Shown in pieces: positions 37,986-52,322 of a DNA stretch of 52,322 bases (position 1 is its first letter; each line of letters begins with the position of its first letter). Source of the DNA: Nanobdellati archaeon. GTDB lineage: Archaea; EX4484-52; WAPT01. Position numbers and translations under genes: made by a program. The notes beneath the pieces are model-generated. The model had not been told where the DNA came from, did not search any database, and was given only the letters and a program-made list of their open reading frames with translations. The stretch spans positions 1 to 52,322 of the forward strand of contig WAPT01000016.1 of assembly GCA_015520605.1 (NCBI GenBank), in the 5' to 3' direction.

Positions 37986-38041
37986 TGGAAATATACCGGG
38001 TTCTAAAAATTTATATTGGGGTTGAGCGCAACAATTAAAGC

Positions 38042-38335
38042 ATGCTGATAGAGATTCTCAATGTTTTCAAGGAGATGCTTCTAACCATGGGGAGTAGTGC
38101 TGTCGGTACGGGCAACAAGATAATATCCATGTTCTTCCAGATACTCTGCATAATAAAGTCTCAACTTCCCTACGCATCTCCATTCGAGATTGTACTCACA
38201 CTGTTATTCTTCGGTATGATACTGCTTATAGTGCTGAACACCGTCGTTGGGTCAATAAGGACGCTCACAATGATCGGTATTATAGTTATAGGGATGCTGA
38301 TCTTCATTAGTATTCTAAACGGTACACTTTTTTAA
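38042..38335 (+). CDS. Small membrane protein
   Basis: Two or three hydrophobic helices; TTTATA box upstream. Confidence 0.65.
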   Translation: MLIEILNVFKEMLLTMGSSAVGTGNKIISMFFQILCIIKSQLPYASPFEIVLTLLFFGMILLIVLNTVVGSIRTLTMIGIIVIGMLIFISILNGTLF

Positions 38336-38679
38336 CTGCGCGAGAATATTTGCTTAAGGCTTTGTGGTGAGAATTTCAACCTGAAGCCTTTCCCTTCACC
38401 ATCCGCTAGCCTGAGCGCCCTCCTCAACCTAAATAGAAGCCTCACAAGATTTATGTTGGTGAGCAATCTTATCATATTCGCTTCAAGCAACGTAATCTCT
38501 TTCGATGTGGGATCTACTCTGAATCGCCCTACCACACGTCTGTCTCTTCTTTTTGATCCACGTCTCCTGCTTTTCAAATAGACGGTTGCCTCAATTTCCA
38601 CTCCACTCTTTTCAGCGAGTCTTAAAATTTCCCTTATTTCAGAGGGGTTGAGGTTTTCCGATTTATTTTTTTTTCTCAT
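38332..38679 (-). CDS. Basic hypothetical protein
   Basis: 115-aa Arg/Lys-rich ORF divergent from the ATPase. Confidence 0.6.
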   Translation of the reverse strand: MRKKNKSENLNPSEIREILRLAEKSGVEIEATVYLKSRRRGSKRRDRRVVGRFRVDPTSKEITLLEANMIRLLTNINLVRLLFRLRRALRLADGEGKGFRLKFSPQSLKQIFSRS

Positions 38680-38749
38680 ATGGGAAGGTTGTAAGTCAAT
38701 CTTTAAATTTTGAAAAATTTAATATTACGCCCTTACCAAATTAAAAACC

Positions 38750-40021
38750 ATGCACAAGATCATTGTTGGCAGGGATTCTTGGGATCTCGAGAAGTATGGA
38801 GATGCTGGGACGGGATACGTAGGAAAGAACTACGCCGGAGAGAAGAAGGAAGCCAGGCTGACCATCCCGATTTATATGGATCTCGCGAGACCTCATGTTG
38901 TAGGGATTTTTGGAAAAAGAGGTATGGGTAAATCCTATACCATGGGTACCATAGCGGAAGAGATAATGCTCCTGCCCGAGAGTATAAGGAAAAATATGAG
39001 TGCGATCATTATAGACACCATGGGAATCTTCTGGAGCATGAAGTATCCGAACGACAGGGATTTCAAGGCACTGTTGTCTTGGAATCTTCATCCTCGTGGC
39101 TTTCCCGTTGAGATCCTCGTGCCCAAAGGATTGGAGGACGAGTACAAAAGTGAAGAGATACCGTATGACGGTACATTTTCCTTTTCTGCCAGCGAACTGA
39201 CAGCTGAAGATTGGGGATATACTTTCGAGATAGATCTGATGAGTGAGGTCGGGGTTTTTCTCGAGAGGTTCATAAAGGAGCTCAGGGAAAATGAAAAGAC
39301 TTACACTATGGAAACGCTGATGTATGCCCTTGAAGACATGCCGTCCAGCCATATAAGAGATGCTCTGATCAACAGGTTCAGCGTCGCAGAGGAATGGGGT
39401 ATATTTTCGCCTGCTGGAAGCGGTATGAGTGAAATTGTGAAACCGGGCATGGTTACCGTTCTTGATATCTCGCTCCTCGGCTCTTTCTCTCTTGGATGGA
39501 ACGTTAAAACGCTGGTCGTGGGACTTCTCGCAAGAAAGCTTCTGCACGAAAGAATGAAAGCGAGGAGAAAGGAAGAAATCGATAGCATGAGCGGAATTGA
39601 GAGATCGCATATGCCGATAGTGTGGATGTTTCTGGATGAAGCGCACCAGTTCCTCCCAGAAACTGGAAAGACAGCAGCAACAGATCCGCTCATACAGTGG
39701 GTCAAGGTTGGAAGAGAGCCCGGCGTTTCCCTTGTGCTTGCAACCCAGCAACCAAACAAATTGCATGAAGCCGCAATAAGCCAGATGGATGTTGTTATAT
39801 CACACAGACTCACCGCAAGCTCAGACCTGAACGCTCTTAGAAACATAATGCAGACATATCTTAGGTATGACCTCGCATCCTACATAGACGCGCTCCCAAG
39901 AGTTAAGGGTGCGGCCATTATTCTGGATGACAACTCGGAAAGAATTTACGCTGCCCAGATGAGGCCGCGCATTTCTTGGCATGCGGGAGGAACACCCATA
40001 GCGATAAAAGAAACAGAATAG
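38750..40021 (+). CDS. HerA/FtsK-like ATPase (DUF87)
   Basis: HVVGIFGKRGMGKSYT Walker A, FLDEAHQF Walker B, GREPGVSLVLATQQP. Confidence 0.9.
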   Translation: MHKIIVGRDSWDLEKYGDAGTGYVGKNYAGEKKEARLTIPIYMDLARPHVVGIFGKRGMGKSYTMGTIAEEIMLLPESIRKNMSAIIIDTMGIFWSMKYPNDRDFKALLSWNLHPRGFPVEILVPKGLEDEYKSEEIPYDGTFSFSASELTAEDWGYTFEIDLMSEVGVFLERFIKELRENEKTYTMETLMYALEDMPSSHIRDALINRFSVAEEWGIFSPAGSGMSEIVKPGMVTVLDISLLGSFSLGWNVKTLVVGLLARKLLHERMKARRKEEIDSMSGIERSHMPIVWMFLDEAHQFLPETGKTAATDPLIQWVKVGREPGVSLVLATQQPNKLHEAAISQMDVVISHRLTASSDLNALRNIMQTYLRYDLASYIDALPRVKGAAIILDDNSERIYAAQMRPRISWHAGGTPIAIKETE

Positions 40022-40024
40022 ACT

Positions 40025-41170
40025 TCACTTTTTATTGTTGCCACTGCTTTTATCGTCACTTCTGGAAGCCTGCATTTTCTCATTTTCACTTTCCTCGCGG
40101 TTCTCAAACCTAACATCAGTGGGAAGATTGTTGCCAAAGTAAATTTTTCTGACGGGCCAGGAAATTTCTATTCCTTCTTCATCGAACCTTTTCTTTATGG
40201 CTTTTATCAACTCATGGGTTATGGTGTAACGGTAAGCATAATCTTTGGCCCTCACTATTATTGAAAAATCTATGTTCGAATCCCCGAAATTTTTGTATCT
40301 CACTAATGGGTTCCAGGAAGTGTCGCAGAATTCACTCAGTCTTTTTTGCACTTCCTTGGCGACCTCAACGACTATTTTCTCCACCCGTTCAAGATCTGAG
40401 TCATAGGACACACCACAGCTAACAACAACGTTGGTGGGCTTTACCGGCATGGCATAGTTAATTATCTTGCTTTGGGCGATTTTGGAATTCGGCAAAATTA
40501 CGGAGTAATCAGCGAGGGTTCTTATTTTTGTAGATCTCCACCCCACATCCTCAACGTAACCCACAGTTCCGTCTTCCAATTCCACAAAGTCACCAACTCT
40601 GATGGGTTTGTCTGAGAGAAGGTGTAGCCCAGCGAAAAAATCCGATAGCGTTCCCTGTAACGCGAGACCGATGGCAAGCGAACCCACACCCAGAGTTGTT
40701 AGGAGCGGTGCAAGCGCCACATTAAAATAGTCGAGAATGGTTAAAACACCTATAAGGAACACAAAAAGATAGATGACTTTTGAAACAACCCCCGGAAGCT
40801 TCACTTTCTTTTCCCTCTCGAACCAGTAAGTAGCGAAAAACACGAAAATCTCAGCCATCATCCATGATGCTGCAAGCGCCCCGGCTATCACAAAGAATTT
40901 CTCAATTGTGGTAAAAAATTCTATCCTCATACTAAGAATGTTTGCTGAAGTGTACAGGCCTATGAGAACCACAACAAGTATCAGTGGACGAGAGATTATA
41001 TCAAGAAGCAGATCGTCGAGCTCACTTTCCGTTTTTCTCGCCTTTCTTCTGAAATACGGAATTATGATTTTGATTAAGACACATATACCCACAAGGAAAA
41101 TGAGGAAGTTAAGGATAGCTAATCCTACATCGGTGTGGAGGAAAAACCTCATTATCTGTTCAAACACCAT
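40025..41170 (-). CDS. mscS: Small-conductance mechanosensitive channel
   Basis: LGVGSLAIGLALQGTLSDFFAG, PIRVGDFV, GWRSTKIRT, PNSK, VSYDSD. Confidence 0.93.
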   Translation of the reverse strand: MVFEQIMRFFLHTDVGLAILNFLIFLVGICVLIKIIIPYFRRKARKTESELDDLLLDIISRPLILVVVLIGLYTSANILSMRIEFFTTIEKFFVIAGALAASWMMAEIFVFFATYWFEREKKVKLPGVVSKVIYLFVFLIGVLTILDYFNVALAPLLTTLGVGSLAIGLALQGTLSDFFAGLHLLSDKPIRVGDFVELEDGTVGYVEDVGWRSTKIRTLADYSVILPNSKIAQSKIINYAMPVKPTNVVVSCGVSYDSDLERVEKIVVEVAKEVQKRLSEFCDTSWNPLVRYKNFGDSNIDFSIIVRAKDYAYRYTITHELIKAIKKRFDEEGIEISWPVRKIYFGNNLPTDVRFENREESENEKMQASRSDDKSSGNNKK

Positions 41171-41274
41171 GCTGATAAGTTTACGGAGAAGAGATAAAAA
41201 GGTTTTTCATATTCTCCGGTGAAAAAAGAAGGAGAGGATGTGTCGGGCTCGGCGGAGGGGGTTCAGCAACAGTA

Positions 41275-41541
41275 TCAGCTTATTACACCTCTGTGGTTGA
41301 TACCTGCACTCCACAACAAATCCTGAAGTGTTGTCTCTCTTTTCCCATACTTTCCAAAAGCGTGAGGGAACATATCCGCCAATTCCTCTATTCTTTTCCT
41401 TGCTTCCTCCTTTGCCTTCTGGAACTTTTTCTCGTGCTCTATGGAAAGGTTCCTGAACTCATAAAATAACATATCCTTTGGATTTAGGCCCATCTCTTTG
41501 AGCTTGTTTTTGAGCAGGATCATCTCATCCTGTAACACCAC
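41275..41541 (-). CDS. Hypothetical protein (88 aa)
   Basis: GGAGGTG SD before the GTG start. Confidence 0.65.
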   Translation of the reverse strand: MVLQDEMILLKNKLKEMGLNPKDMLFYEFRNLSIEHEKKFQKAKEEARKRIEELADMFPHAFGKYGKRETTLQDLLWSAGINHRGVIS

Positions 41542-41574
41542 ACACCACCTCCGCGAAAGAGTTTTAAGGTATCA

Positions 41575-41751
41575 TTACTGAGTTGCATAGCTAAGGATGG
41601 TCTGCTGAATAACCTGCTCATGAAGCTGGTGGAGAGGTTTGCCGTTCACATAAACTGGGTAAATCTTGCTGAGCTCTATTATCATTCTCCTTATCCTTTT
41701 CACTTCTTCTGGGTTTGGTCTGCCAGTACGTTTGATCATCTCCCGTGCCAT
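41575..41751 (-). CDS. Small hypothetical protein (58 aa), not in the ORF track
   Basis: GGGGTGAT SD; MAREMIKRTGRPNPEEVKRIRRMIIELSKIYPVYVNGKPLHQLHEQVIQQTILSYATQ*. Confidence 0.65.
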   Translation of the reverse strand: MAREMIKRTGRPNPEEVKRIRRMIIELSKIYPVYVNGKPLHQLHEQVIQQTILSYATQ

Positions 41752-41900
41752 CAGGTATCACCCCCGTGAAAAGAAATAGTTCGGTCGGGGTATTTAAGGT
41801 CCCACATACACCCTTGCCGAAAGATAGAGAATATTGCCGATAAAATTGAGAGTCAGCTTGAGAAATACACAACCCGTCTCCATTTGAAAAGAGGACGTTG

Positions 41901-42467
41901 TTAGAACATCCCCTCATTCTGGATAAAGATCGCTAGAGCTTCTATAGCCTTCCTTCTGTGTGATACCTTCTTTTTATATTCATAGTCCTCCGCAAAGGTC
42001 CTACCATGACCCTTCGGAATAAAAATTGGATCAAAACCAAAACCCGCGGTACCTTTCGCCTCTTCAGCTATTCTACCAAGACATTCTCCTGTGAAGAGCC
42101 TAATGTCATTCTCATTCAGAGCCAGAGCAATGACAGCCCTAAATTTCGCGCTTCTGTCTTCAACACCCTCCATTAGTTTAAGGATTCCACGAATCCCTAT
42201 GGTTCTGTAAACGTAGGAGGAGTACACACCAGGAAAACCCTTAAGGGCGTTTATAAGCAGACCGGTATCCTCCACCATGACCGCATGGCCGATCAGCTTG
42301 TAAGCTTCCCTGGCTTTAAATTCCGCCACGCTTTCCAGCCCATCGCTTTGAATTTCCGGCAGGTTGAGTTCGATGTGCCTCACATCAATACCGTGAGGTA
42401 AAAGAGCTTCCTTAATTTCCTTCACTTTATTTACGTTGGAAGTTACAAAATATATGGTTTGATGCAT
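41901..42467 (-). CDS. rdgB: Non-canonical purine NTP pyrophosphatase (RdgB/HAM1)
   Basis: FVTSNVNKVKE, VEDTGL..NAL.GFPG, GFGFDPIF, SHRRKA. Confidence 0.95.
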   Translation of the reverse strand: MHQTIYFVTSNVNKVKEIKEALLPHGIDVRHIELNLPEIQSDGLESVAEFKAREAYKLIGHAVMVEDTGLLINALKGFPGVYSSYVYRTIGIRGILKLMEGVEDRSAKFRAVIALALNENDIRLFTGECLGRIAEEAKGTAGFGFDPIFIPKGHGRTFAEDYEYKKKVSHRRKAIEALAIFIQNEGMF

Positions 42468-42550
42468 GCACAATGCACCGTTGAACGGTTGGTGGGAAAA
42501 AATTTTTAAATGTGATTCACGATACTGCTTGGGTTGTTGGTGGCTTACCC

Positions 42551-43099
42551 ATGGAGACAGAGGACGACCCCCATCCTCAGCACGGTTTTTATATATGGGG
42601 CGGAGATAGGGACAGAGTTTTTGCTCACTACAGTTGTAACGGTTTCTCTAAATTAGAGGATAATGGTGAAGAAGGAAACGACGATGTTGACATTCAGAAA
42701 TTCTTGGATGAAATCTTCGGCGATGATGAAACAATAAATATCGTAGTACTGGGAAAACACAAACGGGGATCTCCCGAATACGGTGTCTGCGTATATACAA
42801 GAAATGAGCCCTATTTGGTTATGAAAGGTGAAGAGATATACAGGGCAATCAAAAACAACATTAACGGTAAAAGTGAGAGCGGTTTACTTACCACCAGAGA
42901 GGATATTCGCAAACCGAATGGTGGTGAAAATAATTCTTGGGTGAAAGTGGGCGAGATTTGCGGGAAGTGTCTGCCGCTTGAAGTTGCGAAAGAAGATATT
43001 GCTTTAGAAATGATGAAAGCATGTCTTATGAAATCCTACAGAAATAATTATCCTGACGCGGGAGAGATCCAACCATATGCCATGTGCAGAAAAACCTGA
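42551..43099 (+). CDS. Hypothetical protein
   Basis: Long open frame ending just before the tRNA-Gly 3' end; no family recognised. Confidence 0.65.
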   Translation: METEDDPHPQHGFYIWGGDRDRVFAHYSCNGFSKLEDNGEEGNDDVDIQKFLDEIFGDDETINIVVLGKHKRGSPEYGVCVYTRNEPYLVMKGEEIYRAIKNNINGKSESGLLTTREDIRKPNGGENNSWVKVGEICGKCLPLEVAKEDIALEMMKACLMKSYRNNYPDAGEIQPYAMCRKT

Positions 43100-43115
43100 A
43101 CTGATTCTGATGTGA

Positions 43116-43189
43116 TGGTGCGCCGGCCGGGATTCGAACCCGGGCCATCGGCTTGGAAGGCCGATGTCATACCCCTAGACTACCGGCGC
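43116..43189 (-). tRNA. tRNA-Gly(TCC)
   Basis: GCGCCGG acceptor stem, TCGGC-CTTCCAA-GCCGA anticodon arm, GGTTCGAATCC T-arm, encoded CCA. Confidence 0.97.
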
Positions 43190-43415
43190 GCGATTTGAGG
43201 GAATTTGAGGGAGTATTGATTTCTGAATAAATTTTAGTAAAAATTATTTAAAGCTTCATAGTTCGCTAAAGTCTCCAACACTTTCTTTGTTGTGCTAAAT
43301 AATATCTACGCTGGTTGGTATCCTCCCTAAAACTTGTGGAACTCTCAGTACTCAACTCTAGTTATGGCTTTCCAGAGATCATCGCTCGTCGTTGTAAAAG
43401 GAACAGTGTGTACAA

Positions 43416-43691
43416 TTATACCTTAAGAATTTCGTGTATCAGTCTGTATTTCTCGACTTCTGCCGGCCATGCAACGAGGGCTCTGTCTATCCTTTTCACC
43501 TTTATTAAGTCTTCCCTTGCCAGTTGGTCAAAGTGATACTTGATTTTCGAAATCACACCTTTCTGTTTTTTCGGATCTTCCGTCCAAATTCCAAGTTCCT
43601 TGGCAACTTCAGTTACATGTGTGGGCCATTTCTGATTTATTATCTCAAGAATTCTATCTCTGAGTTGCTTTCCACTCAAATTATCCCCCAT
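43416..43691 (-). CDS. Winged helix-turn-helix protein
   Basis: RILEII...PTHVTEVAKELG...IKYHFDQLAREDLIKVKR ArsR-like wHTH pattern. Confidence 0.75.
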   Translation of the reverse strand: MGDNLSGKQLRDRILEIINQKWPTHVTEVAKELGIWTEDPKKQKGVISKIKYHFDQLAREDLIKVKRIDRALVAWPAEVEKYRLIHEILKV

Positions 43692-43981
43692 AGTTTTAGA
43701 TTTTGAATACAAAAATTTTAATTATGTGAAGGGCTGTGTTGAAGGTGTGTGAACTATATTGTCATTTGGCTCGATCGCTCTTCGTTTTTATAGCAGTATT
43801 CATTTCTGTAAAAGTTGCTTACAAGATTGTTGTTTGAACCATCGGATTTTAAATGTGGTAACAAATTACTCGACGTGTTTTTTACACATATGGTTCTCTT
43901 TGCTTTTTTCTTGCTTCCTAATAAATTCCCAGTATGTGCGTTCGGAAAATTATATATAGTTACACTTCATTTTAACTCTAT

Positions 43982-44413
43982 ATGAAAATAAAGCACTCGT
44001 TTGTATCGCTGCTGGATCTTCCTGAAGTTCTGCCATTTGCAGTTTTTCCAGGAGAAAAAGAACCAAAAGACAAAGAGCTCTTTGATTTTGTTGACGCGAT
44101 TGCCGAACAATTTGGAGAGGAGATATACTATATAGGAAACGACATAATTGAAGATAAATTTTATGAGAGGTTTTTGTTTGAAAAAGGCGGATTCCTTGAG
44201 GTGATGGTGCAGGCGCCTGCTGCCATAATAGCACATTTTGTGGAGCGTTCCAGAGCTTTTAAGTTTGCAAGAGCATTGAAGCGGGTGATACTTTCAATTG
44301 ACAGGCCGGAAGCTAAACTGCTTGCAGATGGAATAGAGGTTTCAAGTGAGAATGAGGAAGCACTGGATTACCAGACGTGGTCGAAGCTTAAAAAAGTGAG
44401 GGAAGTTTTGTGA
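43982..44413 (+). CDS. Hypothetical protein
   Basis: 143-aa ORF preceded by TTATATATA box; 7 nt upstream of the V4R gene. Confidence 0.75.
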   Translation: MKIKHSFVSLLDLPEVLPFAVFPGEKEPKDKELFDFVDAIAEQFGEEIYYIGNDIIEDKFYERFLFEKGGFLEVMVQAPAAIIAHFVERSRAFKFARALKRVILSIDRPEAKLLADGIEVSSENEEALDYQTWSKLKKVREVL

Positions 44414-44420
44414 TGTTCCT

Positions 44421-44903
44421 ATGCACCCACTAGCCAAAAAGCTCCTGGTTTCAAGACAGCTGCAGATGGAAGAAGGCGATCTCAGAGTGCTTGGTGATAA
44501 TATGATCATACTTCCCGCAGATGTTCTTCTCGAATTTAATGAGCTTTTAGATGAAAAAATCGTGTACAGAATTGGCGAGATAATTGGGGACAGAATGGCT
44601 TCTACCCTGAAGAAATACGGTATAAGTGGAATGAAGCTCGTGGATTTTTGTCTGAATTTGATGTCAATGTATGGATGGGGTAAGCCATCCATAGTAAGAG
44701 TGGGCGAAAAAACGTTTTTAATGGTTGAGCATTCTGTTATCGCTCTGAAAGCCATAGAAAAACAGAAAAAATATAGATGCTGTGGCTTGCTTGCAGGAAT
44801 ATTTGCCGGATTGTTTTCAAACGCTATGGGCAAAAAAATGACTGCCAGAGAAGTTAAGTGCTTCGCCCTTGGAGAGAAGTTCTGTGAGTTTGAAATTTTT
44901 TAG
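44421..44903 (+). CDS. V4R (vinyl-4-reductase) domain protein
   Basis: YRIGEIIG, MYGWGK, CCGLLAGIFAG, REVKCFALGEKFCEF. Confidence 0.88.
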   Translation: MHPLAKKLLVSRQLQMEEGDLRVLGDNMIILPADVLLEFNELLDEKIVYRIGEIIGDRMASTLKKYGISGMKLVDFCLNLMSMYGWGKPSIVRVGEKTFLMVEHSVIALKAIEKQKKYRCCGLLAGIFAGLFSNAMGKKMTAREVKCFALGEKFCEFEIF

Positions 44904-45001
44904 TTTTTGGTATGGTTTAAAACTTTAAAATTCGCTTTTTGTCGAGCATCTTGAACTTGTTTTGTGTAACTTTTATTAATGGACGGTGTTTAATTCTGAA
45001 A

Positions 45002-45033
45002 TGAGTTTGATTTTGACTCAAATCGTATTTGAG
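45002..45033. promoter_or_regulatory. Overlapping inverted repeats (putative operator) upstream of FIST-luxE-luxC
   Basis: TGAGT-N9-ACTCA (45002-45020) and CTCAAAT-CGT-ATTTGAG (45017-45033), downstream of TTTTATTAA at 44971. Confidence 0.45.
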
Positions 45034-45047
45034 AGTAGATTTAAACT

Positions 45048-46460
45048 ATGGTGAAAAAGATGGGCAAATACATCCATGCCGGCACAGGCATAAGCAGTGC
45101 TGAGGATCCCACTCAGGCGGGGAAAGAAGCTGTTGAGATGGCTCTGGAAAAGCTTAAGGAAGATGGTGGTAAAAAACCTGATTTTGCGGTTGTTTTCTGT
45201 TCAGGCGGAAAATATGGAAAAAACGACAAGACCATCAAAAAGTTCGTTGATGCTGTGCATGAAGCACTGACGTCAGCAAACAAAGATGTTAAATGGATAG
45301 GATGCACAACTGCTGGCGAGATCAGTAATTATGGTATCAATTTCGGTAGCGCTGTTGTAGGGGTTATTGAATCGGATTATATACGCTGGGGGGTGGGTTA
45401 CGCCGAAGGTGCAAAGGAAAAACCATATGAAGCTGGAAAGAAAGCTGCGAAGAGAGCTCTTGATGATTTGAAAGTTGACAAATATTTAGATGCATACATT
45501 TCATTCCAAATGTTGAAAAAGAAACATCCTGGTGAGTTAGTGAAGAACAAACAGTTCGTTATGCTTACTTTAAACCCAGGATTTACTCTAAAGGAGAGCG
45601 GTTGGGAAAATGATATTCTAGATGGAATTAAGGATGTTGTGGGAGTATTCACCCCAATTGTAGGTGGATCTGCCACGGACGATATGCGTTTTCTTGAAAA
45701 TTTCCAATTTGTTAACGGAATAGTCTCTAATAATTTGTGTATATGTGCTGCATTGTACAGCAATCTGAAGCTAGGTTTTGGACTAGCACATGGATTCAAA
45801 CCTACTGAGAAGACAGGCATTGTTACGGATGCAGAAGGAAACGTTCTAAAGAGAATTAACAATAAGCCAGCACTTGACGTGTATTCTAGTTTTGTTGGAA
45901 TGAAAAAAGAGTATTTAATAGATGGGTTCAAATCGCTCGAGCGACTTAAAAGCATGCCTCTCGCATTAATTTCATTTACATCTAAAATGAAGCTTACAGA
46001 AACCTTATTGAAAAAATCAAAGTTTATGCAACTAATAGCCAAAAATCCTTTAGGTGTCCCTGATATAAATGGAATATATTGGCTAAAAGTGGTAAACAAT
46101 TGCTTAGCTAATGATGCACTTTTATTAAATTCTAAAATTGAAAAAAATCTACCCATAGTTCTCATGAAATTTGACAAAAAGTCGGTGTTTTCTGCAACAC
46201 TTGATTCAATTGAAAGTAGTTGTAAGGATATGAAATCTCCAAAATTTGCGATAATTTTTGAATGTGCTGGAAGATTACTACTAATTGGGAAAGAAAACAT
46301 TTTTAAGTGTTACGAATTAGTTAATAAAAAGTATGGAAATATGATGTATGTAGGGTTTTATAGTGGTGGTGAAATTGGACTCACCAGAAAAACCTCAAGT
46401 GGGATACATGCTTATACGTGTACTTCATTAACAATTGATGATGAGCTAATACTTGAATAA
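45048..46460 (+). CDS. FIST domain (FIST_N + FIST_C) sensory protein
   Basis: PDFAVVFCS, IGCTTAGEI, PIVGGSATD, HGFKP, RINNKPALDVY, FECAGR, GFYSGGEI. Confidence 0.9.
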   Translation: MVKKMGKYIHAGTGISSAEDPTQAGKEAVEMALEKLKEDGGKKPDFAVVFCSGGKYGKNDKTIKKFVDAVHEALTSANKDVKWIGCTTAGEISNYGINFGSAVVGVIESDYIRWGVGYAEGAKEKPYEAGKKAAKRALDDLKVDKYLDAYISFQMLKKKHPGELVKNKQFVMLTLNPGFTLKESGWENDILDGIKDVVGVFTPIVGGSATDDMRFLENFQFVNGIVSNNLCICAALYSNLKLGFGLAHGFKPTEKTGIVTDAEGNVLKRINNKPALDVYSSFVGMKKEYLIDGFKSLERLKSMPLALISFTSKMKLTETLLKKSKFMQLIAKNPLGVPDINGIYWLKVVNNCLANDALLLNSKIEKNLPIVLMKFDKKSVFSATLDSIESSCKDMKSPKFAIIFECAGRLLLIGKENIFKCYELVNKKYGNMMYVGFYSGGEIGLTRKTSSGIHAYTCTSLTIDDELILE

Positions 46461-46480
46461 AACCACATGAGGTGTGTTTT

Positions 46481-47659
46481 ATGGACAAACTGGAGGCGTA
46501 TAGGCAGCTTGTTGATAGAATGAATGATTTAATTTCCAATGAACATCCTTTCAAAAATAATCATAAAAAAATAAAACTTCTTAGAGATGTTATAAACTTC
46601 CATTTTGATCACAATGAATTTTATAGGAAAGTGTTGAGTATAATACCCAGTGACGGGGATGTGGAAAATATAAAAGAACCTTCTGATGTACCTCCTTTAC
46701 CCACTCATGTTTTTAAGCGGAGTGTAGGGAAGTATGCTGACTTTGTTACGGTTAGAGAGATACCCTTCAAGTATTATACGTCAAGTGCTACTGGTGGGGA
46801 TCCAAGTCTGGTCGCAAGAACTGATGATGATAAGGAGATAATGAAATCCGTATATTATGACCGATACGTAGATTTTTTGGGAGATAATGGTTTTGGAGAA
46901 AAATTATTCGCTTTTGCACCGCCTCATCCAAAACTAGGCACAGCACAGATCGCTCAGATCTACGCAAAGATAAATGAAAATGTTCCTGTGGAGTACTTGG
47001 TAGAGTTAGATGAAAAGGGTGCGAGAGTGGTTCCAGAACTTTTATTGAAAGAGTTACCTAAGCTAGAGAAATCTGATGTGGTGTTTACGGTGGGCGGTTC
47101 TGTTCCTCTTACATACCACACCCTTTTAAAGTTCAAGGAAAAGGGTCTAAGTTGGGATTTTAACGGACGATGTAAAATTGCCGTTGGCGCTGGAGGTTGG
47201 GATGGTGTTAAAGGAAGTATCAATTTACCGCCCATTTCCAAAAAAGATTTCATAGACCTTATGTATCAACTGTTTAGGACACCTTCCGATAAAATTGTGG
47301 ATGGATATGCAACATCAGAAATATCAGTGTTATTTCCAGGTCACTGGTCTGAGGAGCACCAAGATTTTCTATATCATACCCCTGTTGCTTATGGTAATGT
47401 ACTTATTAGAGATTCTAGAAACTATGAGATTCTAGAAGGAGAAGGATCAAGAGGACTCATTAATATAATCAGCCCACTTGCACCGACTACAGCAGGTACA
47501 AATTCCCTCGTTGTTTCTGATATAGTCGAGCTTGTAGCGGAGGATAAATGTGATGAATGCGGGAGAAGAGGTCCTGTATTCAGGTACATATCAAGAGATA
47601 AATCCTCTTACAAGACAGGATGTGGTGCGATGGTTCTGAAATATCTCAAGGAACTATGA
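46481..47659 (+). CDS. luxE: LuxE-like acyl-protein synthetase
   Basis: FHFDHNEFYR, VPPLPTHVFK, TSSATGG loop, GGWDG, DGYATSE, SDIV...CDECGR, C-terminal RD...KTGCG; GAGGTG SD. Confidence 0.8.
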   Translation: MDKLEAYRQLVDRMNDLISNEHPFKNNHKKIKLLRDVINFHFDHNEFYRKVLSIIPSDGDVENIKEPSDVPPLPTHVFKRSVGKYADFVTVREIPFKYYTSSATGGDPSLVARTDDDKEIMKSVYYDRYVDFLGDNGFGEKLFAFAPPHPKLGTAQIAQIYAKINENVPVEYLVELDEKGARVVPELLLKELPKLEKSDVVFTVGGSVPLTYHTLLKFKEKGLSWDFNGRCKIAVGAGGWDGVKGSINLPPISKKDFIDLMYQLFRTPSDKIVDGYATSEISVLFPGHWSEEHQDFLYHTPVAYGNVLIRDSRNYEILEGEGSRGLINIISPLAPTTAGTNSLVVSDIVELVAEDKCDECGRRGPVFRYISRDKSSYKTGCGAMVLKYLKEL

Positions 47660-47681
47660 TATTTCTTTAGCGGGGGGTTTT

Positions 47682-49166
47682 ATGATGAAAGAAGAATACA
47701 AATTACCTATTTATCTGCAAGGAAAATTGGAGGAAAGCGATACCACCCATCTTATCGCGGAGCTGGATGGAAGAAAAGTTATTTCATGTATACCCTCTCC
47801 AGAAGATGTTTATAATGCAGTTCTTCGTTTAAAAGATGTGTCAAGAACTCTGGAAGACAGATACACTATACGTGAACTTGCAGAGATATTAGATGGTGCG
47901 AGAGATGCTTTCTTTGGCACCGACAGGTATGCAGATACAGTTTCGATACTCGAGATAACAACAGGCAGATCTCGAGAAGTTGTTAAAGAAGATCTTAACA
48001 AACTAGAGGAGTTTATGGATAAACACTACCTCCAGGCAATGATTAAAGATGCTGAGGGAGGATACAGAGGTATATTTGATAGACCTGTCTCCAAAATAAT
48101 GGATCTTGTCTATAAACGACGAAAACCATTAGGGGTTGTGTTTCATCATCTTGCAGGGAACTCGCCCATGGTCACAACTAGTGTGGTCATTGGAGTTTTA
48201 ACCAAAAATGCCAACCTCGTAAAGACAGGTAGCGGGGATCCTGCGACTAGTGTTTATTTGGCCGATGCGATAAATGATGTGGATGAAAAAGTAGGCGAAA
48301 CGATTGCTGTGTTTTATTGGCCTGCAACGATCGATGGTGAATTAAATGAGATATATTACAGAATATTTCCAGAAACTCCAGCAGAGGTTTTGATAGACGG
48401 CGTTGCCTGTTGGGGTGGTGAAACTTCAATAAACACAATAAAGAAATTAGCAAACGCATCCGGAGTCAAGATAATAGAGCACGGGCCAAAATACAGTATT
48501 GACATAATGTTTGATGTTCCAGCTGAAGATTCTATTTACAGAAATTTACTTAGAGATTCTATCGTGTCCCATGACCAAAACGCATGTATAAGCACCAGAG
48601 TCATCTTCGTCAAGGGTGATGGTAAAAAGGTGGCTGAGAATATAGCCCGTTATTTTGAGAAGATAAAAGAGGAGTACCCAAACACCTCCTCAACAGTAGG
48701 AGAAGTCATAGGGAAAAGGATAGTTTATTTGAAAAGAGAAGGTGCAAAAATATACACACCTCCAAAGAACAGTCCAGATTGGACAGTGGTCTATTTACCT
48801 AAAAATACAGAATTAACCCTAAATGATATTGACGCTTGTATGAACAGGTTTCTTGTAGTTAAGGAAATAGAGTCTTTGGATGATATAAGTGAGTTTATAA
48901 GAAGAAATAATCTGGAAAGATATATGCAAGTAGCAGGGATTTATCCAGATACCTATCTTTCAAATCCTGAGGTTACCGAAAGACTCTGGAATTTGGGTTT
49001 TTCGAAACTATCTAAGATAGGCGAGCATCAGATTTTCTATCCAGGGGCATCCCATGACGATGTTGTTCCTTTGCTGGAATTCACACGATATGTAACCGCA
49101 GATAAACATAACCTAGTAACGAAAACGCTTAAGAGACTATATGGATTGGTATCAAGAAACAGATAA
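47682..49166 (+). CDS. luxC: LuxC-like acyl-CoA/acyl-protein reductase
   Basis: PLGVVFHHLAGNSP, TKNANLVK, FYWP, CWGG, EHGPKYS, HDQNACISTR (catalytic Cys), GASHD..PL..FTRYV. Confidence 0.85.
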   Translation: MMKEEYKLPIYLQGKLEESDTTHLIAELDGRKVISCIPSPEDVYNAVLRLKDVSRTLEDRYTIRELAEILDGARDAFFGTDRYADTVSILEITTGRSREVVKEDLNKLEEFMDKHYLQAMIKDAEGGYRGIFDRPVSKIMDLVYKRRKPLGVVFHHLAGNSPMVTTSVVIGVLTKNANLVKTGSGDPATSVYLADAINDVDEKVGETIAVFYWPATIDGELNEIYYRIFPETPAEVLIDGVACWGGETSINTIKKLANASGVKIIEHGPKYSIDIMFDVPAEDSIYRNLLRDSIVSHDQNACISTRVIFVKGDGKKVAENIARYFEKIKEEYPNTSSTVGEVIGKRIVYLKREGAKIYTPPKNSPDWTVVYLPKNTELTLNDIDACMNRFLVVKEIESLDDISEFIRRNNLERYMQVAGIYPDTYLSNPEVTERLWNLGFSKLSKIGEHQIFYPGASHDDVVPLLEFTRYVTADKHNLVTKTLKRLYGLVSRNR

Positions 49167-49580
49167 AATCAGGATTATAGTACATGATTGATACCACAAC
49201 CAACAAAACTTCTCAACAATCCCGATTTTCTGTTCTAATCACATGTGTTGAGTAAATAACCACCTCCATAACGGCATAAATCTTATTCTCCTACCATCCA
49301 TTCTCTACCTGTTCTCACAACCTCAAGTTAACATCATCAAATCTCTCCATTTCAAAACATGTAATCCATAAAATCACACAAGATCTATCTATTCAAAAAA
49401 CAAAACCCGGCAATCATAAAAGCAACTTATCAGCGCTTCCGAATGAAAAATACTTGGCATTCTTAGGATAGCTATATTCTGTTAAAAAAGACGAATATCA
49501 CGTCTGAGCTTTTAGAAGCTTCTTCTTTTACTTTCGCGATTACCTCTCCAAGTAAACAGTTACAAAATTACTTGAAGGGA

Positions 49581-49714
49581 TGGTGGGGGCGCAGGGAATC
49601 GAACCCTGGTCAGTGGGTGTCCCCTCAAAAGCACACCCACGTGCTAATCATCCTTGCGTCATCGCTCCAGACTCCGATCTGGAGCCCACCGTGATACCAC
49701 TACACCACGCCCCC
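49581..49714 (-). tRNA. tRNA-Trp(CCA) with 60-nt intron at 37/38 (intron 49619..49678)
   Basis: GGGGGCG/CGCCCCC-ACCA acceptor stem; GTGGG-CTCCAG|intron|A-CCCAC; bulge-helix-bulge (AGA / CTCC:GGGG / ACA); GGTTCGATTCC T-arm. Confidence 0.95.
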
Positions 49715-49809
49715 ACCAGAACAACGATTTTATTTATTCTGATGGAGGTTTTTAAAGTTTAGCGAAAGTTGTAGAAACACGTTTAAAAGTTAAGTCCACT
49801 TTTTCTTTC

Positions 49810-50145
49810 ATGCCACTGACCTTTAATGAGTACCAGAAAGAGAGTAGAAAGACGGCAGTTTACCCAAACGCTGGCAGTAACTTCATTTATCCTGCTCTCG
49901 GGCTTGGAGGAGAAGCAGGAGAAGTTCTGGAAAAAATAAAGAGGATAATAAGGGATAAAAACGGTGTTGTTGATGATGAGATGAAGGAGAAAATAGCTAA
50001 GGAGCTGGGAGATGTGCTCTGGTATGTTGCTCAGCTCTGTACAGAGCTCAATCTGAGCATGGAGGATGTTGCAAGGAAAAATCTCGAAAAACTCTTCTCC
50101 AGAAAGGAGCGGGGAGTTCTGCAAGGAGAAGGGGATGATAGATAG
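49810..50145 (+). CDS. MazG-like nucleotide pyrophosphohydrolase
   Basis: FNEYQ, YPALGLGGEAGEV.EKIK, KELGDVLWY, NLEKL..R. Confidence 0.92.
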   Translation: MPLTFNEYQKESRKTAVYPNAGSNFIYPALGLGGEAGEVLEKIKRIIRDKNGVVDDEMKEKIAKELGDVLWYVAQLCTELNLSMEDVARKNLEKLFSRKERGVLQGEGDDR

Positions 50146-50289
50146 CTAGCAAAATATTTATAAAATTATAACACCGTTATTGAAGAGCATGGAGGTAAAG
50201 GGTGGCGCTGTTTGTCCCTGATTCTGAGAATTATAAATTAGAAGTTACCGCTCTCCTTTCTGGGAAATTGTGCATAGAAGGTGATAATT

Positions 50290-51219
50290 ATGAGGATTGC
50301 TAACAATACCCTTGAACTGATAGGAAATACACCTATGGTCAAGCTGAGGGTTGAAAACGTAAAGGGAGAGATATGGGCTAAGCTTGAAGGTATGAATCCT
50401 GGAGGCTCGGTTAAGGACAGAGCAGCGCTTTATATGATAAAGGATGCTGAAAGAAAGGGCCTCATATCTAAAGATAAGATAATCGTTGAATCCACCTCGG
50501 GGAACACTGGCATAGGGTTGGCTGTGGTCGCGGCCATAAAGGGATACAGAGTTCTCGTTGCCATGCCAGAATCCGTCTCGATAGAAAGAAGAAAGATTCT
50601 TATGGCGCTTGGATGTGAGATTGTGTTAACCCCTGCAGAGAAAGGAACAGATGGTGCTTTCGAGTACGTAAAAAAGCTTGTTGAGAAAATGCCCGACAAG
50701 TTTGTGTGGCTTGATCAGTATTCAAATGAAGCCAACGTCAGAGCGCATTATGAGACCACCGCTCCAGAAATCTGGGAGCAAATGAACGGTAGCATAACCC
50801 ACCTCGTTGCCGGGATAGGGACTGGAGGCACGATAACAGGAATAGGGAGATTTCTAAAAGAAAAAAACCCGAGCATTAGGATCATAGGGGTTGAGCCCGA
50901 TGAAAATTCCGATATACAGGGGTTGAGGAATCTCAAGAAACGTTTCAAGCCATCCATTTTGGATAAAAGAATAATGGATGAGATTGTATATGTTAATGAA
51001 GAGGAAGCCCTTAAGGCAGCGAGATATCTGGCAAGAACAAACGGACTTCTTGTTGGAATGTCGAGCGGTGCGGCTTTTCATGTTGCAAGAAGAATAGCCC
51101 AAAAGGAGATTTGCAGAATAGCTGTTATATTTCCCGACATGGGATTCAAATATCTGAGCACTAGAATGTTTGATATGAAAGCTTTGCTTGGGTGTGCAAA
51201 GTATTTGGAGGAAGCTTAA
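50290..51219 (+). CDS. PLP-dependent cysteine synthase family protein (CysK/CysM)
   Basis: IGNTPMV, KLEGMNPGGSVKDR, STSGNTG, GIGTGGT, GMSSGA, FPD.G.KYLS. Confidence 0.92.
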   Translation: MRIANNTLELIGNTPMVKLRVENVKGEIWAKLEGMNPGGSVKDRAALYMIKDAERKGLISKDKIIVESTSGNTGIGLAVVAAIKGYRVLVAMPESVSIERRKILMALGCEIVLTPAEKGTDGAFEYVKKLVEKMPDKFVWLDQYSNEANVRAHYETTAPEIWEQMNGSITHLVAGIGTGGTITGIGRFLKEKNPSIRIIGVEPDENSDIQGLRNLKKRFKPSILDKRIMDEIVYVNEEEALKAARYLARTNGLLVGMSSGAAFHVARRIAQKEICRIAVIFPDMGFKYLSTRMFDMKALLGCAKYLEEA

Positions 51220-51252
51220 AAATATATAGGTTTGCTGCCATCATTCAGATGT

Positions 51253-51768
51253 ATGGAAGTTAAGGATGCCATTTTTGGAAGGAGGAGCATAAGAAAGTAC
51301 CAGCCAAAAGATGTTGAAGATGAAAAGATACGTGAAATTCTGGAAGCTGCGATATGGGCTCCTTCCGCAGGCAATACCCAAACATGGCGTTTCTATGTTG
51401 TTAAAAACCCCGAGATAAGAGAAAAGCTCATGCGGGCTTCCTACATGCAGAAGCAAATAACCGAAGCTCCGGTTTCCATAGTTGTTACCTTTGATATGGA
51501 CGAAATGGATAAGTTTTACGGGAGAAGGGGCGTTGAGCTTTACGGTATTCAGGATACCGCGGCTGCCATTCAGAACATGCTTCTGAGGGCTTACGATCTT
51601 GGACTTGGCACCTGCTGGATAGGTGCTTTTGATGACGGGGAAGTTTCGTCCATCCTGAAAATCCCCGCTACGGAAAGGCCGGTTGCCATAATAACCGCGG
51701 GTTATCCGGCAGAAAATCCCAGCTCAACAAGAAAGCCCCTGAAAGATGTTGTCAGATTTGTTGAATGA
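51253..51768 (+). CDS. Nitroreductase family protein
   Basis: RRSIRKY, APSAGNTQTWRF, AIQNMLL.A..LGLGTCWIG, GYP. Confidence 0.93.
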   Translation: MEVKDAIFGRRSIRKYQPKDVEDEKIREILEAAIWAPSAGNTQTWRFYVVKNPEIREKLMRASYMQKQITEAPVSIVVTFDMDEMDKFYGRRGVELYGIQDTAAAIQNMLLRAYDLGLGTCWIGAFDDGEVSSILKIPATERPVAIITAGYPAENPSSTRKPLKDVVRFVE

Positions 51769-51875
51769 ATCACATGGAGAAAATGTTTAGTTTTGTTCTC
51801 AAGATACCGAGATGACAAGGTTTAAATATTTTGTCACAGCAATCTCTACTGGGACGGTCCCCGCGGTTGATAGAG

Positions 51876-52322
51876 ATGGCCCCGAAGAAACTTGGATTTA
51901 GGTTTAATGCTAAGCATATCATACTATTCTCGTTGTCCACTCTCGTTTTCAGCCTTCTCTTTTTTCTGTCACTTGCTTCAACAGCTTGGTGGAATCCCTC
52001 CTGGGAGTACGTCAGGAAAATTACCGTGACGGAAAGAAGCGGAACAGACCTGTATGAATACCAGATAAAGGTCGTGCTGGACACGGCAAGCCTCATCTCT
52101 GCAGGGAAGATGAGGAGTGATTGTGGGGACATAAGATTCATATGGCATAATCAGACTTCTGGCGAAGATTTGGAACTCCCCTATTACATGGAGGAGGGGA
52201 CGTGCAACACCACCAACACGACGGTGTGGGTGAAGGTGCCGTATATCCCTGCTGGAGGGACGACGACCGTTTACATGTATTATGGCAACCCCGCTGCAAC
52301 GAGCGAGAGCAGCATGGAAAAA
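51876..52322 (+). CDS. DUF2341 domain secreted/surface protein (partial; runs off the window)
   Basis: Signal peptide, then AWWNPSWEYVRKITV...GKMRSDCGDIRF...LPYYME..TVWVKVP.IP...VYMYYGNP.A.SES; not in the ORF track because it has no stop codon. Confidence 0.88.
   Translation, partial: MAPKKLGFRFNAKHIILFSLSTLVFSLLFFLSLASTAWWNPSWEYVRKITVTERSGTDLYEYQIKVVLDTASLISAGKMRSDCGDIRFIWHNQTSGEDLELPYYMEEGTCNTTNTTVWVKVPYIPAGGTTTVYMYYGNPAATSESSMEK

What the first reader, a model, noticed from the sequence alone, without database searches (positions are those of the whole stretch)
45048..49166. FIST-LuxE-LuxC operon in an archaeon: candidate aldehyde-producing signalling or lipid system without luciferase
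Seen: three tightly spaced co-oriented genes (gaps ~20 nt): a stand-alone FIST protein, a LuxE-like synthetase with its ATP-binding loop and C-terminal acyl-accepting Cys (KTGCG), and a LuxC-like reductase with its catalytic Cys (DQNAC). No luxA, luxB or luxD is in the window. Known: LuxE activates fatty acids and LuxC reduces them to aldehydes; FIST domains are small-ligand sensors, some (NosP) binding heme/NO; archaeal lipids are isoprenoid-based. Inference: a module that reduces a carboxylic acid (host-derived fatty acid, or an isoprenoid/aromatic acid) to an aldehyde and couples it to FIST/V4R sensing, e.g. a synthase-receptor pair for host or cell-cell signalling. This is the best candidate for an undescribed system here.
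Basis: partly seen in the sequence, partly recalled or inferred. Interest (0 to 1): 0.85.

Follow-up and report, generated by a model that had tools for sequence, protein, structure and literature searches.

The report
Archaeal aldehyde-making enzymes with FIST partner
A tiny symbiont-type archaeon carries a conserved gene set that pairs an acid-to-aldehyde enzyme couple with a FIST protein whose two best-kept residues match the aldehyde-binding site of the human protein FBXO22, so the cell may make and capture its own aldehyde.

Summary
Window 45048-49166 encodes, co-oriented and 11-22 nt apart, a FIST_N+FIST_C protein, a LuxE-like synthetase and a LuxC-like reductase. Both LuxCE acyl-carrying cysteines are in place. 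A small unknown protein (P5) and a V4R protein lie just upstream.

The contig is archaeal, in an 863-kb, 90.7%-complete genome, so a bacterial mis-assembly is unlikely. No luciferase, LuxD or ACP gene was found in that genome.

FIST next to an adenylating enzyme and an ALDH-type reductase recurs in DPANN-type and Asgard archaea. The P5+V4R pair recurs with it in a sister species and in two genomes of another phylum.

In the sister species the flanks are 88-95% identical in DNA. The stretch from FIST codon ~97 to 27 nt past the LuxC stop is replaced there by a very divergent FIST / AMP-ligase / ALDH set.

The two best-conserved FIST_C residues, C406 and E442, align with human FBXO22 C326 and E362. 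That site binds aldehydes as a hemithioacetal.

Best reading: an acid-to-aldehyde reductase whose product is captured or sensed by FIST. The substrate is unknown and nothing has been tested biochemically. I found no paper describing the module. The scan has noted it before in eight other genomes.

The parts
43116..43189 (-). tRNA-Gly(TCC), left neighbour of the locus
   Evidence: ARAGORN; Rfam tRNA, 73 bits.
43982..44413 (+). P5: 143-aa protein of no known family, always paired with the V4R gene
   Evidence: No Pfam, NCBIfam or PADLOC hit. It is 94% identical in sister species G002 and 49-52% identical in two genomes of another phylum, where it again sits beside V4R and the module. The AF2 model has pLDDT 76. 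The weak best fold match is prokaryotic AdoMetDC (E 1.5e-4, TM 0.45-0.5).
44421..44903 (+). Stand-alone V4R-domain protein (160 aa)
   Evidence: PF02830, 5.1e-11, 42.9 bits against a cut-off of 31. 149 of 160 residues are identical in G002.
45048..46460 (+). FIST protein (FIST_N + FIST_C) with a conserved C406/E442 dyad
   Evidence: Pfam. AF2 pLDDT 94, pTM 0.92. The top fold matches are FBXO22, then Toblerone-fold hydrolases. C406 and E442 are 2 of only 5 invariant columns in a 47-sequence alignment. They align with FBXO22 C326 and E362.
46472..47659 (+). LuxE-like acyl-protein synthetase (likely start ATG 46481), with acyl-accepting C384 on the C-terminal tail
   Evidence: PF04443, 8.4e-20. 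Match to 7xc6_E LuxE at 9.1e-9, with C384 aligned to chain residue 364. TSSATGGDP aligns with the LuxE nucleotide loop.
47682..49166 (+). LuxC-like acyl-thioester reductase, catalytic C302 in DQNAC
   Evidence: PF05893, 5.7e-50. Match to 7xc6_A LuxC at 9.6e-21, cysteine aligned. The cysteine is invariant in 21 aligned relatives.
45335..49192 (.). Swapped cassette: no DNA similarity to sister species G002, although both flanks are 88-95% identical
   Evidence: blastn and the genome search. GC is 0.378 against 0.44 in the flanks and the genome. FIST residues 1-96 are 94% identical to G002; residues 97-300 are 40% identical.
49581..49714 (-). tRNA-Trp(CCA) with a 60-nt intron, right neighbour of the locus
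   Evidence: Rfam tRNA-like hit; ARAGORN run with the intron option.

Best explanation
The locus is one copy of a mobile archaeal module. It makes an aldehyde from a carboxylic acid and hands it to a dedicated FIST protein.

Step 1 (inferred from homology, about 0.8): the LuxE-like enzyme adenylates a free acid with ATP and acylates its own C-terminal C384.

Step 2 (about 0.8): the tail passes the acyl group to C302 of the LuxC-like reductase, which reduces the thioester with NAD(P)H to an aldehyde. No CoA or ACP is needed.

Step 3 (inferred, about 0.45): the FIST protein binds that aldehyde reversibly as a hemithioacetal on C406, activated by E442, as human FBXO22 does at C326/E362. FIST then acts as the receptor or carrier of the product.

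Step 4 (speculative, about 0.3): the ligand state of FIST is read out through small partner proteins. Here these are V4R and P5. In Asgard archaea they are Roadblock and gelsolin-like proteins.

The acid substrate is unknown. It probably differs between cassette types.
For: Enzyme pair:
- Pfam hits above cut-off.
- The best PDB sequence matches are the LuxC and LuxE chains of 7XC6, with both acyl-carrying cysteines aligned. The mechanism is as described in PMC12041015 (passages read).
- The LuxC-type cysteine is kept in 20 of 20 FIST-linked reductases. The LuxE tail cysteine, in a G-C context, is kept in 16 of 20.

Linkage:
- FIST-LuxE-LuxC occurs in the same order in 5 of 5 archaeal loci and 0 of 3 bacterial loci from genome contigs.
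- It occurs in 1 of 80 metagenome loci.
- In a 201-genome sample of the phylum of L004, 31 genomes have a FIST hit.
- Of the 20 FIST loci I fetched there, 15 have a LuxC/ALDH-type gene within two genes of FIST. In 11 of these the order is FIST, then a ~350-440-aa gene, then the reductase; that middle gene is labelled LuxE/AMP-ligase-like in 10 and has no Pfam hit in L149. In 2 more the order is LuxE-LuxC-transaminase-FIST.
- 11 of the 14 genomes with a strong PF05893 hit also have FIST.
- 5 of 201 Asgard genomes carry the trio, all with FIST adjacent.
- FIST adjacency is clustered on the LuxC tree: 7 label changes against 22 in shuffles, and 0 of 500 shuffles as low.

FIST chemistry:
- C406 and E442 are invariant in 47 sequences. 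They align with FBXO22 C326 and E362 (the residue numbers are my count from the alignment start).
- C326 forms a hemithioacetal with alkyl and aryl aldehydes. C326A abolishes this and E362A weakens it (bioRxiv 10.1101/2025.08.29.673087 and 10.1101/2023.11.01.564830, passages read).
- The AF2 model of FIST matches FBXO22 best.

Co-inheritance: between sister species, the part of FIST carrying the dyad (residues 97-470) was exchanged together with the enzyme pair. FIST residues 1-96, V4R and P5 stayed 93-94% identical.
Against: - No biochemical data exist for any member.
- The Cys-Glu dyad is family-wide. It is present in 34 of the 37 FIST sequences that cover that region, including FISTs with no reductase nearby. 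It does not single out the LuxEC-linked ones.
- 5 of the 20 fetched FIST loci have no reductase within two genes.
- The authors of the FBXO22 structure saw no obvious ligand pocket in its FIST domain (PMC11185555, passages read). The known FBXO22 aldehyde ligands are synthetic.
- The FBXO22 sequence match is weak (E 0.005, FIST_C only).
- All three proteins score far below the NCBIfam equivalog cut-offs. Substrate and cofactor cannot be transferred from Lux.
- The G002-type ligases lack the tail cysteine, so they may use another thiol.
Confidence: 0.5

Rival explanations
1. FIST is an allosteric sensor of an unrelated ligand (an amino acid, heme/NO or a redox signal). It switches the LuxE-LuxC reductase on or off by protein contact. 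The aldehyde goes elsewhere, for example to an alcohol, an amine or a lipid.
For: FIST is described as a sensory domain, and stand-alone FIST proteins such as NosP act on partner proteins (recalled from Borziak & Zhulin 2007 and the NosP work; neither paper could be read). P0001 hits the NosP model over its N-domain at 3.2e-18. The conserved adjacency fits a regulator as well as it fits a receptor.
Against: The NosP score is 65.9 against a cut-off of 450. This reading does not explain why the dyad-bearing part of FIST is exchanged together with the enzymes. It also does not explain why the most conserved FIST residues are a reactive Cys-Glu pair.
Confidence: 0.2
2. FIST is a third catalytic subunit. 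It would use its Cys-Glu dyad on a YjgF/Toblerone-type fold to process the acyl thioester or the aldehyde (transfer, hydration, deamination or cyclisation), or to supply the acid as LuxD does in luminous bacteria.
Against: TM-scores to the hydrolases are low (0.26-0.41). Whether their catalytic residues are kept in FIST was not examined. No FIST protein is a known enzyme, and FBXO22 shows no pocket.
Confidence: 0.15
3. The locus is an ordinary lipid or surface-glycan modification pathway (fatty aldehyde or alcohol formation, as in the LuxCE homologs of flagellin glycosylation islands). FIST, V4R and P5 are merely neighbours.
For: LuxC/LuxE homologs occur in glycosylation islands (PMC7874193 and PMC4875605, search listing only). 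The same archaeal phylum has FIST-less LuxE-LuxC clusters; in L163 they lie with ACP, a fatty-acyl-CoA ligase and an Fe-alcohol dehydrogenase. The locus is low in GC and variable between species, as surface-modification islands often are.
Against: No ACP, LuxD or glycosyltransferase lies at this locus or, for ACP and LuxD, in the genome. The FIST adjacency is conserved across two or more DPANN-type phyla and Asgard archaea, and across two unrelated ligase types. Chance neighbours would not do that.
Confidence: 0.1
4. The segment is a bacterial contaminant or a chimeric assembly.
For: GC is lower (0.378) than in the rest of the contig. The LuxC gene was found with this query in only 1 of 60 searched relatives (G034, a distant 30%-identical LuxE-LuxC fusion).
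Against: Archaeal genes lie on both sides of the same 52-kb contig, including an intron-containing tRNA-Trp. The same proteins are recorded on a 148-kb contig. Both junctions are colinear with the sister species. The closest relatives of all three proteins are archaeal.
Confidence: 0.02

Closest known systems
LuxC-LuxE fatty acid reductase of luminous bacteria (Photobacterium phosphoreum, PDB 7XC6)
   Same: It has the same two-protein design. An adenylating enzyme with an acyl-accepting cysteine on a C-terminal tail is encoded next to an ALDH-superfamily reductase with a single catalytic cysteine. Both cysteines align.
   Different: Sequence similarity is distant: phmmer E-values are 9.6e-21 and 9.1e-9, and NCBIfam scores are 102 against 750 and 37 against 550. 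There is no luxA/B or luxD and no ACP in the genome. The host is an archaeon. A FIST protein is encoded directly upstream. The substrate is unknown.
Human FBXO22 FIST domain (PDB 8UA3, 8UA6, 8S7D)
   Same: The fold is the same; FBXO22 is the top Foldseek hit at 1.4e-8. The FIST_C Cys-Glu dyad is the same: C406/E442 correspond to C326/E362. In FBXO22 this dyad forms hemithioacetals with aldehydes.
   Different: Identity is about 10%. The archaeal protein has no F-box and does not belong to a ubiquitin ligase. No natural aldehyde ligand is known for FBXO22. Here an aldehyde-making enzyme pair is encoded next door.
NosP, the FIST-type NO/heme sensor of bacteria
   Same: It is also a stand-alone FIST_N+FIST_C protein encoded beside the protein it is thought to act on.
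   Different: It fails the NosP equivalog test (65.9 against 450 bits, N-domain only). The partner here is a reductase, not a histidine kinase. Heme binding was not testable.
Carboxylic acid reductases (CAR) and PaaK-type ligase plus CoA-acylating ALDH pairs
   Same: The net chemistry is the same: acid to aldehyde through an adenylate and a thioester. The sister species carries such an AMP-ligase/ALDH pair in the same slot.
   Different: There is no phosphopantetheine carrier domain, and probably no CoA in the window's version. The acyl group is carried on the enzyme's own cysteine tail.

Membership tests
LuxC (acyl-protein thioester reductase, PF05893) | Pfam model above the gathering score | tested here: met
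   170.8 bits against a cut-off of 21, E 5.7e-50.
LuxC (acyl-protein thioester reductase, PF05893) | Catalytic cysteine in the DQxAC motif | tested here: met
   C302 aligns with the DQQAC cysteine of 7xc6_A. It is invariant in alignment A5.
LuxC (acyl-protein thioester reductase, PF05893) | NCBIfam LuxC equivalog score (true long-chain fatty-acyl reductase of lux operons) | tested here: not met
   102.2 bits against a cut-off of 750.
LuxC (acyl-protein thioester reductase, PF05893) | Part of a lux operon with luciferase luxAB and transferase luxD | tested here: not met
   PF00296 and PF02273 have no match in the 90.7%-complete genome.
LuxE (acyl-protein synthetase, PF04443) | Pfam model above the gathering score | tested here: met
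   71.4 bits against a cut-off of 24.9.
LuxE (acyl-protein synthetase, PF04443) | Acyl-accepting cysteine near the C-terminus | tested here: met
   C384 aligns with residue 364 of the 7xc6_E chain. Cys364 is named as the acylation site in PMC12041015.
LuxE (acyl-protein synthetase, PF04443) | NCBIfam LuxE equivalog score | tested here: not met
   36.9 bits against a cut-off of 550.
LuxE-LuxC reductase | ATP- and NADPH-dependent reduction of a fatty acid to an aldehyde | not testable with these tools
   This needs an enzyme assay.
FIST domain proteins (PF08495 + PF10442) | Both Pfam models above the gathering score | tested here: met
   123.3 bits against 23.2, and 58.6 against 28.5.
FIST domain proteins (PF08495 + PF10442) | Three-repeat FIST fold as in FBXO22 | tested here: met
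   AF2 pLDDT 94. Foldseek top hits are 8ua6_C, 8ua3_C, 8s7d_D and 8s7e_B at 1.4e-8 to 3.1e-7.
FIST domain proteins (PF08495 + PF10442) | Aldehyde-reactive Cys with a neighbouring Glu (FBXO22 C326/E362) | tested here: met
   Met by sequence alignment only. Reactivity was not tested.
NosP (NO-sensing FIST protein) | NCBIfam NosP equivalog score; heme binding | tested here: not met
   65.9 bits against a cut-off of 450, N-domain only. Heme binding is not testable here.
V4R domain proteins (PF02830) | Pfam model above the gathering score | tested here: met
   42.9 bits against a cut-off of 31. The MsvR equivalog is not met (38.8 against 220).
Known anti-phage defence systems (PADLOC) | Any component matching a PADLOC model | tested here: not met
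   0 families for the 5 window proteins and the 2 G002 proteins.

The most novel reading that the evidence does not exclude
FIST_C is an ancient aldehyde receptor domain. In archaea it is wired to its own aldehyde generator (LuxE-LuxC or another aldehyde-forming enzyme), giving a self-contained producer-receptor signalling cassette that is swapped between lineages as a unit. The drug-exploited C326/E362 site of human FBXO22 would then be the surviving ligand site, which implies an undiscovered natural aldehyde ligand for FBXO22. The Asgard copies, embedded among Roadblock and gelsolin-type genes, would mark the route by which this sensor entered eukaryotes.
Probability: 0.25. Interest if true: 0.85.

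Novelty: new variant of a known kind. Interest (0 to 1): 0.68.

Why it matters
The chemistry of the enzyme pair is known from bacterial bioluminescence. Its fixed partnership with a FIST protein in DPANN-type and Asgard archaea is not described in any paper I could search.

If FIST captures the aldehyde, three things would follow:
- It would give the first natural ligand class for a 20-year-old 'sensory' domain of unknown ligand.
- It would explain why the only human FIST protein, FBXO22, has a cysteine that aldehyde degraders can hijack.
- It would reveal a small-molecule signalling or handling system in genome-reduced symbiotic archaea, which have very few regulators.

The sister-species comparison also gives a clean natural experiment. 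Enzyme pair and FIST ligand half are exchanged as one block, while V4R, P5 and the FIST N-terminus stay fixed.

Tried and rejected
- Complex prediction of LuxC-like (A5) with FIST (A4) returned 'no answer' (score 0.00, mark 0.32). This is no evidence either way.
- The first related-loci run with a 15-sequence alignment failed for lack of a conserved stretch. I repeated it with 4 sequences.
- P5 and V4R show no similarity to the Asgard Roadblock proteins. hhalign probability is at most 0.15% and BLASTP gives E 3.5. The idea that the upstream small proteins are homologous across phyla is dropped.
- The ESM Atlas gave nothing above 0.86 for P5.
- PADLOC gave no defence family.
- The KaiC linkage reported in earlier scan notes does not hold here. 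Of the 9 KaiC-family matches in the genome, none is on this contig.
- The 'amine oxidase' next to FIST in L162 (PF01593, 7.7e-15) looked like a third aldehyde source. NCBIfam places it nearest to protoporphyrinogen oxidase, and only weakly, so I do not count it.
- Borziak & Zhulin 2007 (PMC5067152) is not held. What I say about it is recalled.
- Supplementary files were not consulted.

Full report
**1. What is in the window**

Three co-oriented ORFs occupy 45048-46460, 46472-47659 and 47682-49166.

| Gene | Pfam result |
|---|---|
| 45048-46460 | FIST_N 1.4e-35 and FIST_C 9.4e-16 |
| 46472-47659 | LuxE PF04443, 8.4e-20 |
| 47682-49166 | LuxC PF05893, 5.7e-50 |

- The gaps are 11 nt and 22 nt. 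The first gap is 20 nt if LuxE starts at ATG 46481, which follows a GAGGTG.
- Directly upstream lie a 143-aa protein with no family, which I call P5 (43982-44413), and a 160-aa V4R protein (44421-44903; PF02830, 5.1e-11). They are 7 nt apart, and a 144-nt spacer separates V4R from FIST.
- All three core proteins fall far below NCBI's equivalog cut-offs: LuxC 102 against 750, LuxE 37 against 550, NosP 66 against 450. They belong to these superfamilies but are not orthologs of the named proteins.

**2. The host is an archaeon and the segment is not a mis-assembly**

- The window is a whole contig of an 863-kb, 27-contig genome that is 90.7% complete.
- The contig carries archaeal Pus10 with its archaeal THUMP domain, Trm1 and DUF655.
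- The locus sits between tRNA-Gly (43116-43189) and a tRNA-Trp with a 60-nt intron (49581-49714).
- The same proteins are on record on a 148-kb contig.
- The genome has no match to the luciferase family, LuxD or ACP.

**3. The enzyme pair**

- The only PDB sequence matches are the two chains of the LuxC-LuxE complex 7XC6: E 9.6e-21 for LuxC and 9.1e-9 for LuxE.
- The DQNAC cysteine (C302) aligns with the DQQAC cysteine of LuxC. The tail cysteine C384 aligns with residue 364 of the LuxE chain.
- The review PMC12041015 (passages read) gives the mechanism. LuxE adenylates the acid and acylates Cys364 on a mobile C-terminal loop. The loop transfers the acyl group to the LuxC cysteine, and NADPH reduces it to the aldehyde.
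- The same chemistry is therefore the most likely activity here. The substrate cannot be inferred.

**4. The module recurs**

The LuxC-like protein is rare and divergent.
- A full HMMER scan of 1.84 billion representatives gave 729 hits. Only 12 were below 1e-30 and only one was at 64% identity.
- Its nearest genomic relatives are archaeal: an Aenigmatarchaeota MAG, two Promethearchaeota (Asgard) MAGs and two 'uncultured archaeon' MAGs.

Surveys for the trio:
- Genome-contig loci: all 5 archaeal loci have FIST-LuxE-LuxC in the same order, and none of the 3 bacterial loci has a FIST.
- Metagenome loci: LuxE next to LuxC, or fused to it, is the rule. FIST precedes them in only 1 of 80 loci, L020.
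- 201 genomes of the phylum of L004: FIST is found in 31.
- The 20 FIST loci I fetched there:
  - 15 have a LuxC/ALDH-type gene within two genes of FIST.
  - In 11 of these the order is FIST, then a ~350-440-aa gene, then the reductase. That middle gene is labelled LuxE/AMP-ligase-like in 10 (only weakly in L154) and has no Pfam hit in L149.
  - In 2 more (L150, L151) the order is LuxE-LuxC-class I transaminase-FIST.
  - 1 locus has three tandem FIST genes.
  - 3 loci have no recognisable partner.
  - 1 locus has a Roadblock-like gene and a flavoprotein of unclear type.
- 14 of the 201 genomes have a strong PF05893 hit (E ≤ 1e-20), and 11 of these also have FIST. The other 3 carry LuxE-LuxC without FIST. 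In L163 the neighbours are an ACP, a fatty-acyl-CoA ligase and an Fe-alcohol dehydrogenase; L164 looks the same by gene sizes and labels, and L165 differs. This appears to be a separate, lipid-type kind of cluster.
- 201 Asgard genomes: the trio occurs in 5, always with FIST adjacent. In the 3 such loci where I held upstream sequence, it is preceded by Roadblock/LC7 genes and a gelsolin-like gene.
- FastTree of 112 LuxC-type sequences: the 24 FIST-adjacent ones need 7 label changes, against 22 in shuffles (0 of 500 as low). The window's protein joins those of L004 and L143 with support 98. Long branches were flagged, so the topology is only indicative.

P5 and V4R recur with the module:
- In sister species G002 they are 94% and 93% identical.
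- In two genomes of the other phylum the order is FIST-LuxE-LuxC-P5-V4R (L147, L148).
- Homologs at 66% (V4R), 71% (FIST) and 64% (LuxC) all sit on a contig of 74,064 bp.

**5. A swapped cassette**

- Sister species G002 is colinear with window 37392-45334 at 88-90% DNA identity, and with 49193-51877 at 90-95%.
- Nothing in between aligns.
- FIST residues 1-96 are 94% identical. Residues 97-300 are 40% identical and residues 301-370 are 26% identical.
- In place of the window's genes, G002 has the following:
  - a truncated FIST of 362 aa that lacks the dyad;
  - a CGI-121-like ORF;
  - a contig break;
  - the C-terminus of a second FIST;
  - a 385-aa AMP-binding ligase (PaaK/DVU_1553-like);
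  - a 487-aa ALDH.
- The LuxE and LuxC Pfam models do not detect these genes. They show only marginal similarity to the window's pair.
- The second same-genus species, G001, has unrelated ATPase_2/DUF234 genes at the site and no FIST, LuxE or LuxC.
- The swapped block has GC 0.378, against 0.44 for the flanks and the genome.
- Within its phylum sample, the window's LuxC type was found in 2 of 42 genomes. The other hit is a distant fusion.
- So the architecture is kept: FIST, an adenylating enzyme and a thioester reductase. The actual genes, together with the ligand-site half of FIST, are exchanged as a block.

**6. What FIST may be doing**

- An alignment of 47 archaeal homologs has five invariant columns: G25, P44, G85, C406 and E442.
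- Its profile hits only human FBXO22 in the PDB (E 0.005). The match covers FIST_C, with C406 on C326 and E442 on E362 (the numbering is my count from the alignment start).
- The AF2 model (pLDDT 94) matches FBXO22 best, and then the Toblerone-fold cyclic amide hydrolases. The authors of the FBXO22 structure reported the same relation (PMC11185555).
- FBXO22 C326 forms a reversible hemithioacetal with alkyl and aryl aldehydes. C326A abolishes binding, and E362 is proposed to keep the cysteine reactive (10.1101/2025.08.29.673087 and 10.1101/2023.11.01.564830, passages read).
- A protein with this dyad, encoded immediately before an aldehyde-forming enzyme pair and co-inherited with it, is most simply the receptor or carrier of that aldehyde.

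Caveats:
- The dyad is present in 34 of the 37 FIST sequences that cover that region, including ones without a reductase nearby. It is a family trait.
- The FBXO22 authors saw no obvious pocket.
- Nothing here is biochemical.

**7. Novelty**

- Full-text searches found no paper joining FIST with LuxE, with LuxC or with DPANN. The single FIST+LuxC hit is a plant ALDH survey.
- 'FIST domain' with 'aldehyde' returned only FBXO22 degrader papers.
- The scan's own notes list the same module in eight other genomes. One of them has the FBXO22 cysteine idea, and several report KaiC-like neighbours. I read these after reaching the same reading.
- KaiC genes are not on this contig.
- This window adds several things: the sister-species cassette swap with a breakpoint inside FIST, the two interchangeable enzyme types, and the constant P5-V4R pair.

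**8. Verdict**

The enzyme function is likely (about 0.8), the FIST-aldehyde coupling is plausible (about 0.45), and the read-out and the substrate are unknown.

Noticed in passing
window 49581-49714 (-): tRNA-Trp(CCA) with a 60-nt intron. The default tRNA scan missed it. The surrounding non-coding stretches 49193-49398 and 49476-49763 are 94-95% identical to the sister species, more than the coding flanks (about 90%).
   Followed up: partly
G000:C14:31509-32696 (L097, L098, L100): A second FIST gene in the same genome, 38% identical, with one TAG reported inside the match. It keeps the Cys-Glu dyad. No reductase lies next to it: a malic enzyme is upstream and a 392-aa protein with no Pfam hit is downstream.
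   Followed up: partly
L099 7936-9484 and L108 3720-6686 (sister species G002): G002 has a truncated FIST (362 aa, no dyad) followed by a CGI-121-like ORF and a contig end. On another contig end it has a second FIST C-terminus plus an AMP-ligase and an ALDH. The assembly break falls between two FIST copies.
   Followed up: partly
L109 6911-9789 (G001, same genus): At the equivalent site, the third species of the genus has two ATPase_2/DUF234 genes and a methyltransferase instead of any FIST module.
   Followed up: no
L005 2029-4040; L007 513-2377; L008 2294-4193: In Asgard genomes the module is preceded by a single Roadblock/LC7 protein, a longer Roadblock-like protein of 256-323 aa and a gelsolin-like protein, all co-oriented.
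   Followed up: partly
L163 4443-9606, L164, L165: These are FIST-less LuxE-LuxC clusters in the same archaeal phylum. In L163 the neighbours are an ACP, a long-chain fatty-acyl-CoA ligase and an Fe-alcohol dehydrogenase. L164 looks alike by gene sizes; L165 differs. This appears to be a separate, lipid-type use of the enzyme pair.
   Followed up: partly
L144 1-6846; L156 6384-10405: One genome has two FIST-LuxE(-LuxC) sets in tandem; the second set is cut by the contig end after LuxE. Another genome has three FIST genes in tandem.
   Followed up: no
window 43982-44413: The P5 model (pLDDT 76) weakly resembles the small prokaryotic S-adenosylmethionine decarboxylase fold (2iii, 1tlu; E 1.5e-4, TM 0.45-0.5). 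Whether the self-processing serine motif is present was not examined.
   Followed up: partly
window 20940-23561 (-): An 873-aa protein has only a weak partial hit to the xylose-isomerase-like TIM barrel (4.7e-9). It is otherwise unassigned.
   Followed up: no
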